From the sequence record OP795442: DNA of 64,000 bases; one strand, written 5' to 3'. This DNA is from Escherichia phage A7_1. The position numbers and the translations under genes were made by a program. The notes below the pieces were generated by a model. That model did no database searches and had not been told where the DNA came from. It saw only the letters and a list, made by a program, of their open reading frames with translations. The first letter of the stretch is position 1; each line of letters starts with the position of its first letter. Positions 45,938 to 51,782 of the stretch are shown here, piece after piece.

Positions 45938-46078
45938 CTAGACTAAAACAAAGCCCAGCCGGAGGTATGACCCTTCGGCTAGGTTATCAAAAGTGTCGGT
46001 ATCCTTCATCAATAAAATAAAGCATCACTAACAGGGCGAATACCCCACATAAGAAGATCAAGCCCAATAAGGTGGGCA

Positions 46079-46354
46079 TCAGTCTTCTATTACCTCAAAT
46101 TCACCACTAAAAGCTACGATAGTTTCACCGTAGCCCATGTTCAATCGGGCAGTTGTAGGTTTGCCATTCCTAGATAGATAGTACACCCTCGCTTCGTAAA
46201 TGTCACCAACTTTTACACCGTAAGCCTGTAGGTCTTTGTTATTGATATCTTTATTTTCAGCATTGATTATTCGAACACTGCTGATCTCTGAGTATACAGA
46301 ATTATCTTTCATCAGTATTTTTCCTCTGGACGGAAAACTCCACGGCAAGCCCAC
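46079..46354 (-). CDS. hypothetical protein
   Basis: 91 aa ORF; overlaps the upstream gene by about 40 nt, so the start may be at an internal Met. Confidence 0.4.
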   Translation of the reverse strand: MGLPWSFPSRGKILMKDNSVYSEISSVRIINAENKDINNKDLQAYGVKVGDIYEARVYYLSRNGKPTTARLNMGYGETIVAFSGEFEVIED

Positions 46355-46596
46355 ATACTTGCTTCTTTGAGGCGATCTTTAGCCTTAGATAAGCAATCAG
46401 ATGCAAAAAGCACGGAATCTAGATCCCCTTCGGGAATCGAAGAGTCATTAGCCAGTCGATTATATTCCTCAATAATCTCGTCTTCTAATGCTTTTAAAAT
46501 AAGACCTAAACGAATTTCAGCATCTTTAATGGCATTCACCTTACCGATTTTTTCATCGGTGTGTGGTTTGTAGCCCTTAATGTCATCAATAGCCAT
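46312..46596 (-). CDS. hypothetical protein
   Basis: 94 aa helical ORF; ATGA overlap with the upstream gene. Confidence 0.45.
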   Translation of the reverse strand: MAIDDIKGYKPHTDEKIGKVNAIKDAEIRLGLILKALEDEIIEEYNRLANDSSIPEGDLDSVLFASDCLSKAKDRLKEASMWACRGVFRPEEKY

Positions 46597-47090
46597 TACC
46601 AGTCCTCCTCTGTTTGTTCATACTCTGAAGGGGTGATGAAGTAATTCTGACCCCGCTTGCACTGGTTGAAAGTCCCAACATACCAAGTACCGATATCCAT
46701 GTTGATGAAAGTTTCTTCTTGAACAAAGATCAGATCAGCAAGATTATTGTCTGATCGTTGGGTCGCTAACAAAATATGCTCAAAATCTGCCAACGTCATG
46801 TTATAAGAGAAACCATCTTCGTCCTCCATAACCGCAACAACAGAACTGCGCCCCTGAGTGAATTGACGAAACTGTAAACGTAAATGACGATGCTCATGTT
46901 CATTCGTCTTTACCTTTTTCCGATTTTCAAAGTATTCTTCGGAATAATACGGATGCTTTAACTTTAGCTTTTCAATCTCTTCTAAAGAAAGAGCGTCCTT
47001 GTCCCAACCAGTGAACCATTTACCGTTATGATCAAATACCGCAGGGTATTTACGCTTACTTAAATCTTTAAACATCATAATCCTCCCCAT
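46596..47090 (-). CDS. hypothetical protein
   Basis: 164 aa; His-rich segment (EHEHRH). Confidence 0.5.
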   Translation of the reverse strand: MGRIMMFKDLSKRKYPAVFDHNGKWFTGWDKDALSLEEIEKLKLKHPYYSEEYFENRKKVKTNEHEHRHLRLQFRQFTQGRSSVVAVMEDEDGFSYNMTLADFEHILLATQRSDNNLADLIFVQEETFINMDIGTWYVGTFNQCKRGQNYFITPSEYEQTEEDW

Positions 47091-47400
47091 AAATATCTTG
47101 AATTTTTGAACTTAGGTATTCAGGATCGCTACCATCATACCAGACTTCTACGAAAACCTTTTGGGAACCTTTAACGATCTTTGCACCGACTCTTTCAATA
47201 CCTTTAAAGAAAGATTGCAAGATGTAATCATCTAACACGTTTACTCCATAAGCATCGTGGAGGGATTTTTCATTGTGAACATACACAACCATCTTACCAT
47301 CATAGGTGATTTGGATATGGGGATCATCTTCCCAAGTAATAGCCGGAGAATCCGGCTCAAGCTTTGCAATAACACCAATAGTCAATCGGTTGTCACTCAC
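47068..47400 (-). CDS. hypothetical protein
   Basis: 110 aa; start overlaps the stop of the GHKL-like gene (ATGA). Confidence 0.5.
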   Translation of the reverse strand: MSDNRLTIGVIAKLEPDSPAITWEDDPHIQITYDGKMVVYVHNEKSLHDAYGVNVLDDYILQSFFKGIERVGAKIVKGSQKVFVEVWYDGSDPEYLSSKIQDIYGEDYDV

Positions 47401-48614
47401 TCTTTACCCCCTGCGATGCGTAACATTTTGATAGTTTTCTCCAGTTCTTTACGAGGTTTAGCAACTAAACGACGTTCGTGTCGCTTCAGGAAGCCTTCTA
47501 AGAACTCTAGCGGTTTAAAGGATAACACTTCCTGTACTGATTCGTCAACAGCATACTCTTTCTGGACCATACGATAAACCGGATTTTTTACAGTTACAGG
47601 AGTATAACCCTTCGTGATCGCCATCTGAGTAACAACACGTTTCTTACCGTCGGTCCACGAATCGTCAATAGGGAAAGAATCTTTTCCGTATTTTTCAGCG
47701 AACAACTTAACTGCTGTCTTTGTCAGGTCGTCCTGATCTTCTTGTGACCGACTTTGACCCCAATAATAGCCACCAGAGGTCTTAGCACGACGTTCTGAGA
47801 ACAAAGCAAGGTCATCGTACTGCTCAAGAGCTAAACGCGCCAGAAGCTCGATATCGTCGCTTTCTGACAGTAGTCGGTTTGCTTCATACTTAACCTCAAA
47901 AGTATTTGCACTATCACGATCACGGTCAAGAGTAAAGGCTTCCGGCTTAAAATCATAATCGAATTTAAAATTACCTGGAACACGAGTAACGAACAGTCCA
48001 TTTACAAACAGGTTGCAGTCGCCACCTGTGATAGAGCCATCCTCTTCTTCATTTTGGTATTCGTCCGCAGCATTGTATAGCTTAGTATAAGCTTTACCGC
48101 GGTCATTCTGAATAACGACTGTACGTTCAGTAGTTGGTGCATAGTTATCCATAATTTCCGACATAGCGTACTGAGGGATGTTTTCAATGATAACGGTCAC
48201 AGTATTTGAATCACGACCCGATAAGGCGTTTTCATGGATATCCACCGCCAAAATGTTCTGTTCGTATGTGGTATCGTAAACCATATTTGGAATCCAAAGA
48301 TCATTACCATTTTCGATAACGATATCTGCGCCTTCACGAACAAGCACCAGAAGACCCACTTTCAGACCTTCACCAAACTTACCGATCTTACTGTCATCAT
48401 CACGTTTGGTTGAAACACCCATCAAAAGGCCGGAAACAGGAACAACACCGCCACGAGAGATGATTGTGATCTTACCTTGATTACTATCATCATTCCCAAA
48501 ATAAATATTGAAATCTTCTGTATCGATAGCATTTTGCATGAGTTCACGAGCACCTTGCCACCATGACCAGTGGCTGACGTAATTTTCAGTGATGCTCAAT
48601 TTAATCTGTTTCAT
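47397..48614 (-). CDS. GHKL-family (Hsp90 / MutL / MORC-like) ATPase-domain protein
   Basis: 405 aa; N-box-like ELMQNAIDT (consensus EL..NA.DA) followed by Gly-rich boxes (RGG; GKFGEGLKVG), the Bergerat ATP-binding fold; C-terminal 200 aa unassigned. Confidence 0.6.
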   Translation of the reverse strand: MKQIKLSITENYVSHWSWWQGARELMQNAIDTEDFNIYFGNDDSNQGKITIISRGGVVPVSGLLMGVSTKRDDDSKIGKFGEGLKVGLLVLVREGADIVIENGNDLWIPNMVYDTTYEQNILAVDIHENALSGRDSNTVTVIIENIPQYAMSEIMDNYAPTTERTVVIQNDRGKAYTKLYNAADEYQNEEEDGSITGGDCNLFVNGLFVTRVPGNFKFDYDFKPEAFTLDRDRDSANTFEVKYEANRLLSESDDIELLARLALEQYDDLALFSERRAKTSGGYYWGQSRSQEDQDDLTKTAVKLFAEKYGKDSFPIDDSWTDGKKRVVTQMAITKGYTPVTVKNPVYRMVQKEYAVDESVQEVLSFKPLEFLEGFLKRHERRLVAKPRKELEKTIKMLRIAGGKE

Positions 48615-48626
48615 TTATTTGTCCTC

Positions 48627-49343
48627 TTATTTGTTGTATTGATAAATTGCTTCAGCTAAGCCCCGTGGGGTTAGTGACCGGATCATCTTAGTTCTTGCTG
48701 ACTTACCTCCTAACTTATTCTGCTGATCTGACCAACCAGGTGCAACAGGAACCGGAGAGGTTTTTGGAATTATAAACCCATTTCCTGTCCAAAGTCCAGT
48801 CTTTTTCGGATAAGCATCCCTTGGTTTAATGTATTGAGGAAAATAAGGGTTAACATCATTTACCGGAAGGTAACCGCCATATTCCCAAGGGTTAAAATAT
48901 ACAGTAGGTTTTCGCCATTGTCCAGCTAAAACACTTACTGGGTTTTCAATCATATACGGACAATCGAAAACAAATTCAGCAAGCCAAGCTGCAATCTTCG
49001 CAGTTCTTACCGCCTTGACCTGGAAGAAAGGATCTTTTGCTTTCTTCGATGCAAAGTGACGAGAACCACTAACAGCCATATCGGTACATGGAGGATAGGC
49101 AAGGATCAGGTCCGGCGCAGGCAATCCTAAGTTCTCTACATTCTCCATCCATTCAATATCGATAAAGGCGTTAACGTAAGTGATGTTGGGATGAATTTCC
49201 TTTACGCCTTCATAATCCCCGTGATCAGCATCGTCATAGTTGAAGCAGTAGCATTTGTGCCCTGCCTTCGCCCAGGGAAGAACATCAATCCCTGAACCAG
49301 AAAAGAGACTCCAGATAATCTTTTTATTCATCGTAGCATCCAA
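48627..49343 (-). CDS. C5-methyltransferase-like protein (minimal catalytic core, no obvious target-recognition domain)
   Basis: 238 aa; motif I LFSGSG (F.G.G), motif IV PPCTDMAVSG (catalytic Pro-Cys), motif VI IENP (ENV-like), QWR after it; order matches the C5-MTase catalytic domain. Confidence 0.55.
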   Translation of the reverse strand: MDATMNKKIIWSLFSGSGIDVLPWAKAGHKCYCFNYDDADHGDYEGVKEIHPNITYVNAFIDIEWMENVENLGLPAPDLILAYPPCTDMAVSGSRHFASKKAKDPFFQVKAVRTAKIAAWLAEFVFDCPYMIENPVSVLAGQWRKPTVYFNPWEYGGYLPVNDVNPYFPQYIKPRDAYPKKTGLWTGNGFIIPKTSPVPVAPGWSDQQNKLGGKSARTKMIRSLTPRGLAEAIYQYNK

Positions 49344-49636
49344 ATAGTGGTTAATTTACAAATACACCAGAAAATCCCGATCAGTGTAGCCAGAGTAATA
49401 ACACAAGTCAATACTATAGGTAAGAATATCGTCATAATCACTGCAAAAACTGAAATACCTATGCTTGCAATAAGATCCGGCACGAAATAGTGAAATGGAT
49501 CTCTTGCCTTTTTAATGTTGTCCCATGTTATTACTACGGAGCTAAGGACGAGCCAGAATAAAAAGTACAAAATGCAAGGAAATAAAGTCATGTGTGACTT
49601 AACCATATCAAACCACATGTTGTAGAATTCAATCAT
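49328..49636 (-). CDS. small membrane protein
   Basis: 102 aa, three hydrophobic segments. Confidence 0.45.
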   Translation of the reverse strand: MIEFYNMWFDMVKSHMTLFPCILYFLFWLVLSSVVITWDNIKKARDPFHYFVPDLIASIGISVFAVIMTIFLPIVLTCVITLATLIGIFWCICKLTTIWMLR

Positions 49637-49956
49637 TCAGTTTTCCTCGGTACAGATGCAATAACAGCCTTTTCGACGAGACATACAATAAATCTCCCAA
49701 TCCCTGCCAAAAGGAGAGCAAAGACTGTAAAAGGCAACCCATAAATAAGAACCAAAATCATCAATCCAAAACAAGCGGAAAACAGGACTTCTGTGCCTAG
49801 CCACATTTTGGAGTAATTGATATAATTATGCCGCAATTTTAAAAACAGTCCAGCAATAGAGCCTACAGAAAATATACCAATCAACCAAGGTGCAGTTACA
49901 AATGAACGACTGAACCCTTCCCAAAAAACAAAAACATTAATGATTGCTTCGATCAT
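49633..49956 (-). CDS. small membrane protein
   Basis: 107 aa, hydrophobic throughout; ATGA overlaps on both sides. Confidence 0.45.
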   Translation of the reverse strand: MIEAIINVFVFWEGFSRSFVTAPWLIGIFSVGSIAGLFLKLRHNYINYSKMWLGTEVLFSACFGLMILVLIYGLPFTVFALLLAGIGRFIVCLVEKAVIASVPRKTE

Positions 49957-51431: not shown

Positions 51432-51695
51432 TTATTCTCCTTTGTTCAATGTGGATACGAATTCGATATAAGATTCTGCATTTCGTTTATGATAAATCTG
51501 AGGATAGCTGTCGGTTACTTTGCCGTATTTGATGTATCGCTCAAGCATACCGACAACACCACCAATGGAATGCACAACAACGCCTTCTTCACCGACAAAG
51601 GTAACCACTTCTACGAATGGACTGTTATCATAAGAACGATTTACAATCAGATCGCCGACTTCAAATTCGATTTTATCATTTTGTGAGTAGTGCAT
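51432..51695 (-). CDS. hypothetical protein
   Basis: 87 aa, first gene downstream of the terminator at 51754-51782. Confidence 0.45.
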   Translation of the reverse strand: MHYSQNDKIEFEVGDLIVNRSYDNSPFVEVVTFVGEEGVVVHSIGGVVGMLERYIKYGKVTDSYPQIYHKRNAESYIEFVSTLNKGE

Positions 51696-51753
51696 TTGTT
51701 TCTCCTTTCTGTTTGGTATGGGAGAAGTATAGGGGAGTTTAGGAGGGGTGTCA

Positions 51754-51782
51754 ATAGAAAAACCGCCCGAAGGCGGTTTATT
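51754..51782 (-). terminator. rho-independent terminator after primase-helicase (minus strand)
   Basis: Minus strand reads AAACCGCC-TTCG-GGCGGTTT followed by TTCTATT; downstream of the stop at 51793. Confidence 0.65.

What the first reader, a model, noticed from the sequence alone, without database searches (positions are those of the whole stretch)
47397..49343. Adjacent GHKL-type ATPase and minimal C5-methyltransferase-like gene pair
Seen in sequence: the 405 aa ORF has a Bergerat-fold signature (ELMQNAIDT then Gly-rich boxes including GKFGEGLKVG). The next ORF (238 aa) has C5-MTase motifs in canonical order (LFSGSG, PPC, ENP, QWR) but is too short to hold a normal target-recognition domain. 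Inference: the operon continues into two small membrane proteins (49328-49956) and several unknown ORFs (46079-47400). A GHKL ATPase coupled to a TRD-less Cys-nucleophile methyltransferase-like enzyme is not a pairing I can assign to a described phage function. Candidate roles are DNA or nucleotide modification, anti-restriction, or a phage-borne defense or counter-defense module.
Basis: partly seen in the sequence, partly recalled or inferred. Interest (0 to 1): 0.65.

Follow-up and report, generated by a model that had tools for sequence, protein, structure and literature searches.

The report
Known phage Dcm methylase beside GHKL gene
The two genes are real, but they are independent phage accessory genes that are neighbours only in one narrow lineage: a compact cytosine DNA methylase from an already studied family, and an uncharacterised ATPase-fold protein.

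Summary
Both observations hold. The 405 aa protein has an N-terminal GHKL (Bergerat) fold, and the 238 aa ORF (more likely 234 aa from ATG 49331) is a C5-cytosine methyltransferase fold with the catalytic motifs intact.

The idea of a coupled, undescribed module is not supported. The methylase belongs to PHROG 757, found in 1,549 of 50,697 phage genomes. It is 55% identical over its full length to the KarlJaspers (Bas06) Dcm gene. The Dcm of the closely related strain K42 makes 5mC, has a CCWGG site implicated as its target, and triggers retron Ec86. The GHKL family occurs in only 101 phage genomes.

A methylase lies within 10 kb of a GHKL gene in only 3 of 79 viral loci, all Certrevirus-like, and no GHKL gene lies near any of 80 methylase loci. 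Within the genus Certrevirus all states occur: both genes, methylase only, GHKL only, and GHKL plus a decayed methylase remnant. The two genes also diverge discordantly (GHKL 69–75% identical, methylase 45–46%).

The open residue is the GHKL family itself. It appears phage-restricted, is rIIA/MORC-like in fold, and almost always has Ser, Asn or Thr where the canonical adenine-binding Asp of motif II sits. Its function is unknown.

The parts
48627..49331 (-). Compact Dcm-like C5-cytosine DNA methyltransferase. It is 234 aa from ATG 49331; the mechanical ORF extends to TTG 49343, giving 238 aa.
   Evidence: phrog_757 at 5e-78. Pfam DNA_methylase 20.7 bits, just under the gathering score of 22. 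AF2 pLDDT 92, with Foldseek top hits to DNMT3A/3B. 55% identical over full length to KarlJaspers Dcm bas06_0055. ATGA start/stop overlap with the upstream ORF.
49290..49304 (-). Methylase motif I, FSGSG (AdoMet-binding loop)
   Evidence: Translation verified. F14, G16, S17 and G18 are nearly invariant in 55 homologs. Aligns to M.HaeIII motif I.
49086..49094 (-). Methylase motif IV, PPC (catalytic cysteine; C82 in 234-aa numbering)
   Evidence: P84, P85 and C86 are invariant. Aligns with C82 of KarlJaspers Dcm, the catalytic residue mutated in the retron Ec86 study.
48939..48947 (-). Methylase motif VI, ENP
   Evidence: E133, N134 and P135 are invariant. Aligns with E128 of KarlJaspers Dcm.
48912..48917 (-).
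   Evidence: W143 and R144 are invariant, but Q142 is not conserved. The motif sits just before strand E148-150 in the model. Assigning it to motif VIII is an inference from order and topology.
48681..48893 (-). Short conserved segment at the TRD position (aa 151-221), containing the KK pair at 48801-48806
   Evidence: Many invariant residues, including P152, G156, D163, D176, Y178, K180, T182, W185, F190 and L211-G213. K180/K181 align with K175/K176 of KarlJaspers Dcm, mutated as putative substrate-binding residues.
47397..48614 (-). GHKL-fold protein, 405 aa (phrog_6077, function unknown). N-terminal Bergerat domain (~aa 1-165), then a beta-rich middle region and a helical C-terminal region.
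   Evidence: phrog_6077 at 9e-126. NCBIfam sacsin N-terminal ATP-binding-like domain at 2e-5. PADLOC TmtA at 2e-4. AF2 pLDDT 85, with Foldseek hits to Topo VI-B, Hsp90-N, PMS2 and GyrB. BFVD hits to rIIA proteins. RBS AAGAGGA upstream of the ATG.
48522..48545 (-). GHKL motif I, ELMQNAID (E24 catalytic base, N28 Mg2+ ligand)
   Evidence: R23, E24, N28 and D31 are invariant in 74 diverse homologs. Aligns to MORC2 and T4 rIIA motif I.
48447..48464 (-). Motif II-equivalent, IISRGG. Ser53 stands where the canonical DxGxG Asp sits.
   Evidence: Position 53 across 74 homologs: Ser 33, Asn 30, Thr 7, Asp 3, His 1. Three alignments place the canonical Asp opposite Ser53: P0178/P0179 (DTGPG, DYGKG), MORC2 (DDGAG) and T4 rIIA (DFGPG).
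48357..48386 (-). GHKL motif III, the Gly-rich ATP lid IGKFGEGLKV, preceded by conserved K70 (48405-48407)
   Evidence: G78, G81 and G83 are invariant. E82, K85 and K70 are each present in 73 of 74 homologs. The pattern resembles the MORC2 and rIIA 'SK...IGxFGxGxK'.
47916..47927 (-). Family-specific DRDR motif (aa 230-233) at the junction of the beta-rich and helical regions
   Evidence: R233 is invariant, and R231 and D232 are each present in 72 of 74 homologs. Its role is unknown.
49328..49956 (-). Two small hydrophobic (membrane-type) ORFs of 102 and 107 aa, upstream in the same gene array
   Evidence: Kyte-Doolittle segments of at least 1.6 are present in both. Junctions overlap by 4 nt. 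phrog_15955 (unknown function) matches the 107 aa ORF.
51726..51779 (-). Terminator (51779-51760) followed by a near-consensus sigma-70 promoter (51754-51726). This is the likely start of the transcription unit containing both genes.
   Evidence: The stem has 8 pairs followed by a T-tract. The promoter is TTGACA-17-TATACT, 11 of 12 matches. It lies in the only sizeable gap (97 nt) upstream of the array. This is a consensus match only, not shown experimentally.
46062..46077 (-). Weak terminator-like hairpin at the end of the array, before the DNA polymerase gene
   Evidence: It lies in the 141-nt gap before the DNA polymerase gene.
46312..46596 (-). Acb2/Tad1-family ORF (94 aa) in the same array, three genes downstream of the GHKL gene
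   Evidence: PF24729 at E 1.4e-16, 60.9 bits against a gathering score of 27.

Best explanation
The locus holds two functionally independent accessory genes. They lie in one tightly packed early/middle gene array between the primase/helicase and DNA polymerase genes of a Septuagintavirus (Vequintavirinae) coliphage.

**Gene 1 (48627-49331)** is an orphan, compact Dcm-like DNA C5-cytosine methyltransferase of the PHROG 757 family.
- Mechanism, inferred from the family: AdoMet-dependent methyl transfer through the motif IV cysteine (C86), with the ENP glutamate and the WR arginine activating the flipped cytosine.
- A short, highly conserved ~70-residue segment stands in for a full TRD, as in DNMT3A.
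- The target is most likely CCWGG-type sites on replicating phage DNA. This would mask them from EcoRII-type restriction, and would make the phage detectable by retron Ec86.

**Gene 2 (47397-48614)** is a stand-alone member of a GHKL-fold family seen only in phage or phage-like contexts.
- Most likely, and this is a low-confidence inference, it is a nucleotide-driven dimerising switch or clamp of the rIIA/MORC/sacsin branch, acting early in infection.
- Its base-contact residue is altered: Ser/Asn/Thr replaces the motif II Asp.
- Its cellular target is unknown.

The adjacency of the two genes is inherited synteny within Certrevirus and Septuagintavirus, not a conserved module.

What is shown: the folds, the motifs, family membership, the phylogenetic distribution, and independent gain and loss. 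What is inferred: activity and specificity of this particular methylase, and any activity of the GHKL protein.
For: **Methylase identity**
- phrog_757 at 5e-78.
- The window protein, KarlJaspers Dcm, rV5 ORF231 and CR9_073 all fall in phrog_757.
- DNMT3A/3B are the best structural matches.
- P84-P85-C86, E133-N134-P135 and W143-R144 are invariant.
- It is 55% identical over full length to KarlJaspers Dcm (E 1e-87), and the residues C82, E128 and K175/K176 are aligned and conserved.
- In the retron Ec86 study, expressing the K42 Dcm raised 5mC on msDNA by LC-MS, a C82A/E128A/K175A/K176A mutant did not, and mutating the CCTGG site abolished retron defence (bioRxiv 10.1101/2023.08.16.553469).
- AAS23 gp52 is 51% identical, and AAS23 DNA was reported Dcm-methylated by restriction digest (PMC8004638).

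**Independence of the two genes**
- The methylase occurs in 1,549 phage records and the GHKL gene in 101.
- Only 3 of 79 IMG/VR GHKL loci have the methylase within 10 kb. None of 80 methylase loci has a GHKL gene within 10 kb.
- rV5 has the methylase only, as does CR3. phiTE and DU_PP_I have the GHKL gene only. PcCB7V has an intact GHKL gene plus a 56-aa methylase remnant.
- In pEp_SNUABM_01 and in the contigs behind L013/L137 and L012/L141 (loci from the same contigs), both genes are present but tens of kb apart.
- Divergence is discordant: GHKL 69-75% identical against methylase 45-46%, while unrelated phages carry closer methylases at 56-62%. The nearest relatives of the Certrevirus methylase outside that genus are in Phapecoctavirus (65%). 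That genus yielded no GHKL hits, an inference from the organism counts.
- No gene family is a conserved neighbour of the GHKL gene across 53 sequence groups.

**GHKL fold:**

**Single gene array:**
Against: - When both genes are present in Certrevirus or Septuagintavirus they are always adjacent and co-oriented. The gap is 12 nt here and 13 nt by coordinates in POP15, and one small ORF intervenes in CR9. Methylases from two different subclades occupy that position, which could hint at selection for adjacency.
- Activity and specificity of this exact methylase were not measured.
- CCWGG specificity in the K42 study was assumed from E. coli Dcm and supported only by site mutagenesis, not mapped genome-wide.
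- BASEL found Vequintavirinae exceptionally sensitive to the RM systems tested, so any protective benefit must be narrow (PMC8594841).
- For the GHKL protein, loss of the motif II Asp leaves it open whether it binds ATP at all.
Confidence: 0.75

Rival explanations
1. The two proteins form a functional module. The GHKL ATPase would act with the methylase in the manner of MORC/paraMORC GHKL proteins in bacterial R-M operons, for example by loading, clamping or regulating the minimal methylase on DNA, or by reading its mark.
For: - The genes are adjacent, co-oriented and 12 nt apart in one gene array.
- The same arrangement occurs in POP15, and in CR9 with one small ORF between them.
- GHKL-cytosine methylase linkage is documented in bacterial R-M neighbourhoods (PMC2292703).
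- The family profile's only PDB sequence hit is MORC2 (E 0.09).
Against: - Co-occurrence is 3 of 79 and 0 of 80 loci in the two reciprocal surveys.
- Either gene is lost within a single genus.
- Other genomes carry both genes tens of kb apart.
- Divergence of the two genes is discordant.
- The K42 family member raises 5mC when expressed on its own, without any phage GHKL partner.
- No SF2 helicase, Vsr or restriction endonuclease partner turned up in Pfam or PHROG scans of the array's ORFs.
- No S5 domain was detected.
Confidence: 0.08
2. The 238 aa protein is not a DNA methylase. Instead it would be a TRD-less Cys-nucleophile enzyme acting on free nucleotides or RNA, or the first step of a base hypermodification pathway such as the phage C5-MT/TET systems.
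For: - It is unusually short for a C5-MTase, and the Pfam score is below the gathering threshold.
- Phage C5-MTs do feed hypermodification pathways (PMC8256090).
Against: - A 55%-identical homolog methylates DNA (5mC on msDNA by LC-MS), with a CCTGG site in the msDNA stem required for retron defence.
- The TRD-position segment is present and strongly conserved.
- No TET/JBP, glycosyltransferase or other tailoring enzyme was found among the array's ORFs.
- In the TET systems the MT and TET trees are congruent. Nothing comparable is seen here.
Confidence: 0.03
3. The GHKL protein acts independently of the methylase as a counter-defence factor. It would be an rIIA-like protector against abortive-infection systems, or a nucleotide-binding decoy or sponge, sitting in an anti-defence gene array.
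For: - rIIA proteins are the closest named viral structures (E 1e-7 to 1e-4, probability 1.0).
- The same array encodes an Acb2/Tad1-family protein and an anti-restriction-type methylase.
- The family is found only in phage-like contexts among arrays of small early ORFs.
- The altered base-contact residue, with an otherwise invariant pocket, suggests a ligand change.
- There is a weak HMM link to the Tiamat defence protein TmtA and to sacsin-type domains.
Against: - The protein is not in any rIIA PHROG.
- hhalign to T4 rIIA is weak (E 0.004, probability 8.7%) and covers only the GHKL core.
- It is 405 aa against about 725 aa for rIIA, has no rIIB-like neighbour and no membrane segment.
- There are no functional data, and the function of rIIA itself is poorly defined.
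Confidence: 0.2

Closest known systems
Phage Dcm-like C5 cytosine methyltransferase of KarlJaspers/K42 (bas06_0055; PHROG 757), the trigger of retron Ec86
   Same: Same PHROG family and 55% identity over full length. Same size (234 vs 236 aa). The catalytic C82, E128 and KK residues are conserved, and DNMT3A is the best structural match in both cases.
   Different: Different phage family (Vequintavirinae myovirus against Drexlerviridae siphovirus). Activity, sequence specificity and retron triggering have not been tested for this protein.
DNMT3A/DNMT3B catalytic domain
   Same: Best solved-structure match (E 4.5e-8, TM about 0.5). Both have the C5-MTase core with an unusually small TRD.
   Different: Only 13-18% identity. 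The phage protein is shorter still (234 vs about 285 aa), and nothing indicates DNMT3-type oligomerisation or CpG specificity.
E. coli / Shigella Dcm (PDB 3ME5) and canonical bacterial C5-MTases (Pfam PF00145)
   Same: Same order of motifs I, IV, VI and VIII. 3ME5 is the HHpred best hit reported by the authors of the clade paper and of the AAS23 paper. A CCWGG site is implicated for the K42 homolog.
   Different: Below the Pfam gathering score (20.7 vs 22), with only the N-terminal ~100 residues matching. About half the length of Dcm. The TRD is reduced to ~70 residues, and the motif IX/X region is compressed (RSLTPRGLAEAI).
T4 rIIA (GHKL-containing 'lysis inhibitor')
   Same: N-terminal Bergerat fold. 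Motif I and the 'SK...IGxFGxGxK' lid pattern are shared.
   Different: 405 aa against 725 aa. Not in the rIIA PHROGs. rIIA keeps the DFGPG Asp where this protein has SRGG. No rIIB partner was seen.
Prokaryotic MORC/paraMORC GHKL proteins of R-M operons (Iyer, Abhiman and Aravind 2008)
   Same: A GHKL gene lies next to a cytosine methylase. There is a weak profile match to MORC2 with the same lid motif.
   Different: No S5 domain was detected, no helicase, Vsr or endonuclease partner is present, the neighbourhood is not conserved, and the setting is a phage rather than a cellular defence locus.
Sacsin-type N-terminal ATP-binding-like domain / Tiamat TmtA
   Same: The only sequence-profile hits for the window protein's GHKL core (NCBIfam NF047352 at 2e-5; PADLOC TmtA at 2e-4).
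   Different: Both hits score well below the curated cut-off (25 vs 50 bits) and cover only ~65 residues. TmtA is a 1,486-position model.

Membership tests
DNA C5-cytosine methyltransferase (PF00145 superfamily) | Class I Rossmann-type MTase fold with C5-MTase architecture | tested here: met
   AF2 pLDDT 92. Foldseek matches to DNMT3A/3B, MET1, DNMT1, DIM2 and the CP-933R prophage MTase at probability 1.0.
DNA C5-cytosine methyltransferase (PF00145 superfamily) | Motif I FxGxG, motif IV PC (catalytic Cys) and motif VI ENV-type Glu, in canonical order | tested here: met
   FSGSG, PPC and ENP are present in that order and are invariant or nearly invariant in 55 homologs.
DNA C5-cytosine methyltransferase (PF00145 superfamily) | Motif VIII QxRxR | tested here: inconclusive
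   Only W143-R144 (followed by K145) are conserved. Q142 is not, and the spacing from ENP is 9 residues rather than about 40.
DNA C5-cytosine methyltransferase (PF00145 superfamily) | Score at or above Pfam's gathering threshold | tested here: not met
   20.7 bits against 22, matching residues 11-109 only. TIGR00675 scores 15 against 100 bits.
DNA C5-cytosine methyltransferase (PF00145 superfamily) | A target recognition domain between motifs VIII and IX | tested here: inconclusive
   A ~70-residue, highly conserved segment sits at that position. It is much shorter than a canonical TRD, and DNA recognition by it was not tested.
Phage Dcm-like compact C5-MTase (PHROG 757; K42/KarlJaspers Dcm) | Full-length homology to the studied member, with its catalytic residues conserved | tested here: met
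   phrog_757 at 5e-78. 55% identity, E 1e-87, with C82, E128 and KK aligned. KarlJaspers Dcm falls in the same PHROG.
Phage Dcm-like compact C5-MTase (PHROG 757; K42/KarlJaspers Dcm) | 5mC formation on DNA at CCWGG | not testable with these tools
   Reported only for the K42 homolog. The window holds 74 CCWGG sites and shows no depletion against 86 +/- 8.5 expected.
GHKL (Bergerat-fold) ATPase | Bergerat alpha/beta sandwich fold | tested here: met
   Foldseek PDB matches to Topo VI-B, Hsp90-N, PMS2, MutL-N and GyrB (E 4e-5 to 5e-2, probability up to 1.0) over the N-terminal ~165 residues.
GHKL (Bergerat-fold) ATPase | Motif I ExxxNxxD and motif III Gly-rich lid | tested here: met
   E24, N28, D31, G78, G81 and G83 are invariant in 74 homologs.
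GHKL (Bergerat-fold) ATPase | Motif II DxGxG with the adenine-binding Asp | tested here: not met
   The window protein has Ser53. Across the family the position is Ser 33, Asn 30, Thr 7, Asp 3 and His 1. The alignment is consistent across three comparisons.
GHKL (Bergerat-fold) ATPase | ATP binding and hydrolysis | not testable with these tools
   No biochemical data are available, and no model coordinates were available for ligand docking.
MORC/paraMORC R-M-associated GHKL systems | GHKL+S5 module in a conserved neighbourhood with methylase plus SF2 helicase, Vsr or a restriction endonuclease | tested here: not met
   No S5, helicase or nuclease domain was found in Pfam or PHROG scans of the protein or its neighbours. 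The neighbourhood is not conserved.
rIIA | Membership of the rIIA protein families, a ~700 aa architecture and an rIIB partner | tested here: not met
   No rIIA PHROG hit, whereas T4 rIIA hits phrog_612 at 9e-250. hhalign probability is 8.7% over 90 columns. The neighbours are small ORFs of unknown function.
Phage C5-MT/TET hypermodification cluster | Adjacent TET/JBP dioxygenase and tailoring enzymes co-evolving with the MT | tested here: not met
   No such domains were found in the array. The criteria for this system come from PMC8256090.

The most novel reading that the evidence does not exclude
The phage-restricted GHKL family (phrog_6077 and relatives) may be a new functional class of Bergerat-fold protein. 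It keeps an invariant Mg2+/catalytic motif I and Gly-rich lid but has systematically swapped the adenine-binding Asp for Ser, Asn or Thr. On this reading it would bind a non-ATP ligand, such as another nucleotide or a signalling nucleotide, and act as a counter-defence factor. In the Certrevirus/Septuagintavirus lineage it might additionally cooperate with the adjacent Dcm-like methylase.
Probability: 0.1. Interest if true: 0.6.

Novelty: new member of a known kind. Interest (0 to 1): 0.2.

Why it matters
Mostly this is a clean-up result. It removes a candidate "new module" and assigns the methylase to a family that is already studied.

- **Testable prediction.** Because a 55%-identical homolog is the trigger of retron Ec86, this phage should be sensed by Ec86-carrying E. 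coli, and should escape by mutating gene 48627-49331.
- **Open lead on the GHKL family.** It occurs in about 100 sequenced phages and many viral contigs, has no known function, and replaces a residue otherwise regarded as universal for ATP binding in GHKL proteins. A knockout plus a nucleotide-binding assay would be cheap.
- **Context.** The surrounding array also carries an Acb2/Tad1-family gene, so it may be a useful place to look for further counter-defence genes.

Tried and rejected
- **Single-sequence searches of the 405 aa protein.** Pfam and PDB sequence searches gave nothing. The fold needed a structure prediction and family profiles.
- **Family profiles against PDB sequences.** These gave only marginal hits: MORC2 at E 0.09 and M.HaeIII at E 0.79.
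- **Conserved partner for the GHKL gene.** I clustered all ORFs within 6 kb of it in 80 loci. The best cluster reached only 5 of 53 GHKL sequence groups, so context gave no functional clue.
- **Retron paper on Bas51 (PMC12548924).** The trigger there is the N6-adenine methylase, not this enzyme, so it was set aside.
- **rIIA membership.** Considered and rejected.
- **MORC-type R-M system.** Considered and rejected because there is no S5 domain, no helicase or nuclease partner and no conserved neighbourhood.
- **Hypermodification pathway.** Considered and rejected because no TET or glycosyltransferase genes are present.
- **CCWGG depletion in the window.** Not significant and uninformative.
- **The "bacterial" homolog P0177.** It turned out to lie on a phage-like contig.
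- **Not done.** AF-Multimer of the pair (structure jobs were exhausted), the third database homolog search, and the representative-library search. These two searches were judged unlikely to change the verdict.


Full report
**What is there.** The window is a Vequintavirinae coliphage of the Septuagintavirus clade. Both proteins are 100% identical to A71_164 and A71_165 of Escherichia phage A7_1, and the DNA is 97.6% identical to phage A5-4.

The two ORFs lie on the minus strand at 47397-48614 (405 aa) and 48627-49343 (238 aa). They sit in an array of 14 co-directional ORFs joined by -4, 0 or +2 nt junctions. The array is bounded upstream by a 97-nt gap holding a strong terminator and an 11/12 sigma-70 promoter (51779-51726). 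Downstream, a 141-nt gap with a weak terminator-like hairpin precedes the DNA polymerase gene. The methylase most likely starts at ATG 49331, which forms an ATGA overlap with the preceding stop. That gives the 234 aa annotated in A7_1.

- The 238 aa protein matches phrog_757 ('DNA methyltransferase') at 5e-78, and Pfam DNA_methylase at 20.7 bits, just below the gathering score of 22.
- Its AlphaFold model is confident (pLDDT 92). The best solved-structure matches are the DNMT3A/3B catalytic domains (E 4.5e-8, probability 1.0), followed by MET1, DNMT1 and a prophage methylase.
- In 55 homologs the residues P84-P85-C86, E133-N134-P135 and W143-R144 are invariant, and FSGSG is nearly so.
- The protein is not TRD-less. 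About 70 strongly conserved residues (aa 151-221) occupy the TRD position.
- The 405 aa protein has no Pfam hit, but matches phrog_6077 (unknown function) at 9e-126, a sacsin-type ATP-binding-like domain at 2e-5, and the Tiamat protein TmtA at 2e-4.
- Its model (pLDDT 85) matches Topo VI-B, Hsp90-N, PMS2/MutL-N and GyrB over the N-terminal ~165 residues. Among viral structures it matches its own family and then many rIIA proteins.

**The methylase belongs to a known, studied family.** tblastn finds it in 1,549 of 50,697 phage genomes. These include Drexlerviridae, Dhillonvirus, Klebsiella siphoviruses of 48-52 kb (Webervirus-type by my reading), Phapecoctavirus and rV5 itself.

It is 55% identical over its full length (E 1e-87) to bas06_0055 of phage KarlJaspers, a 711-bp gene annotated 'Dcm-like C5 cytosine methyltransferase'. 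Both proteins fall in phrog_757.

The retron Ec86 study used the Dcm of the closely related strain K42 (bioRxiv 10.1101/2023.08.16.553469). It reported the following:
- Expressing this Dcm raises 5mC on msDNA, measured by LC-MS.
- A C82A/E128A/K175A/K176A mutant does not.
- Mutating the CCTGG site in the msDNA abolishes defence.
- Phage escapers carry mutations in dcm.
- The predicted structure superposes on DNMT3A.

All four mutated residues align with conserved residues of the window protein.

Two other papers bear on the family. Pantoea phage AAS23 gp52 is 51% identical, and the authors inferred activity from restriction digests (PMC8004638). The paper describing this phage clade already lists a cytosine methylase found by HHpred (PMC11370258).

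Two caveats apply. CCWGG specificity was assumed from E. coli Dcm rather than mapped genome-wide. BASEL found Vequintavirinae exceptionally sensitive to the RM systems tested, so any protection must be narrow (PMC8594841). CCWGG is not depleted in the window, with 74 sites against 86 +/- 8.5 expected.

**The pairing is not a conserved module.** The GHKL family is found in only 101 phage genomes.

| Test | Result |
|---|---|
| IMG/VR loci with a GHKL homolog that also have the methylase within 10 kb | 3 of 79, all Certrevirus-like (69-75% identical GHKL) |
| Methylase loci that also have a GHKL gene within 10 kb | 0 of 80 |
| rV5 | methylase directly upstream of primase/helicase, no GHKL gene in the fetched region |
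| Certrevirus CR9, POP15 | both genes |
| Certrevirus CR3 | methylase only |
| Certrevirus phiTE, DU_PP_I | GHKL only |
| Certrevirus PcCB7V | intact GHKL plus a 56-aa methylase C-terminal remnant, mis-annotated 'N-type ATP pyrophosphatase' |
| Erwinia phage pEp_SNUABM_01; contigs behind L013/L137 and L012/L141 | both genes present, tens of kb apart |

The two genes also diverge discordantly. Between this phage and Certrevirus the GHKL proteins are 69-75% identical, but the adjacent methylases are only 45-46% identical. Methylases of rV5 (57%) and of other contigs (58-62%) are closer. The nearest relatives of the Certrevirus methylase outside that genus are in Phapecoctavirus (65%), a genus that by the organism counts has no GHKL homolog.

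This contrasts with the congruent trees of genuinely coupled phage C5-MT/TET pairs (PMC8256090). The simplest reading is that both genes are independent cargo of the variable region between primase/helicase and polymerase, and that their adjacency was inherited once in this lineage.

**What the GHKL protein is.** Across 74 unique, diverse homologs, R23, E24, N28, D31, G66, G78, G81, G83 and R233 are invariant. K70, E82, K85, R231 and D232 are nearly so. The Mg2+/catalytic motif I and the Gly-rich lid are therefore under strong selection.

The canonical motif II Asp, which contacts adenine in other GHKL proteins (my knowledge of the superfamily), is different. It is Ser53 here, and across the family it is Ser in 33 homologs, Asn in 30, Thr in 7, Asp in 3 and His in 1. 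Three independent alignments place a canonical Asp opposite Ser53: those of distant homologs P0178/P0179, MORC2 and T4 rIIA.

Other observations on this protein:
- It is not in an rIIA PHROG.
- hhalign to T4 rIIA is weak (E 0.004, probability 8.7%).
- No S5 domain, membrane segment or conserved neighbour was found.
- Even the one 'bacterial' homolog lies on a phage-like contig.

I infer a nucleotide-driven switch or clamp with altered base recognition, acting early in infection. The presence of an Acb2/Tad1-family gene in the same array makes a counter-defence role plausible. None of this is shown.

**Comparison with known systems and verdict.** GHKL-cytosine methylase linkage is a described theme in bacterial R-M operons (PMC2292703). 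This locus lacks the defining S5 module, the helicase or nuclease partners, and a conserved neighbourhood.

- The methylase half is a new member of a known, experimentally studied family.
- The GHKL half is a member of an uncharacterised phage family with an unusual motif II.
- The proposed coupling is not supported.

Interest is low overall. The GHKL family is the only part worth an experiment.

Noticed in passing
window 46312-46596 (-): A 94 aa ORF matches the Acb2/Tad1 hairpin domain (PF24729, E 1.4e-16, 60.9 bits against a gathering score of 27). That family comprises anti-CBASS/anti-Thoeris nucleotide sponges. The ORF lies in the same gene array, three genes downstream of the GHKL gene. 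Its 3' end (46310-46371) is about 90% identical at the DNA level to T-even phages, at a place next to regB.
   Followed up: partly
window 51432-51695 (-): An 87 aa ORF carries a 'Phage tudor' domain (PF24144, E 3.5e-29). It is the first gene after the predicted promoter of the array.
   Followed up: no
window 51726-51779 (-) and 46062-46077 (-): A strong intrinsic-terminator hairpin is immediately followed by an 11/12 sigma-70 promoter, in the 97-nt gap after the DnaB-like primase/helicase ORF. A weak terminator-like hairpin lies before the DNA polymerase gene. Together they delimit a ~5.6 kb array of 14 small genes.
   Followed up: partly
alignment A1: proteins P0175, P0178, P0179: The most distant GHKL-family homologs keep the canonical DxGxG Asp (P0178, P0179). 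They also carry a C-terminal HExxH-like motif (LVHEFAH, LVHEWAH, ILHEATH) that the window protein lacks, which hints at a metallopeptidase-type extension in that branch.
   Followed up: no
L002 (Pectobacterium phage PcCB7V) 4816-6206: Two public annotations are misleading. 'N-type ATP pyrophosphatase' is a 56-aa remnant of the methylase C-terminus, and 'chaperon protein htpG' is the GHKL-family protein.
   Followed up: yes
window 48627-49331 (-): This methylase is a close family member of the phage Dcm that triggers retron Ec86. The phage is therefore predicted to be sensitive to Ec86/Eco1-carrying hosts, with escape through loss of this gene.
   Followed up: partly
window ~34000: Cumulative GC skew peaks near 34 kb. 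This coincides with the switch from plus-strand to minus-strand gene blocks.
   Followed up: no
window 46079-46354 (-): A 91 aa GTG-start ORF overlaps the Acb2-like ORF by 43 nt and has no family hit. Either its start is mis-set or the ORF is not real.
   Followed up: no
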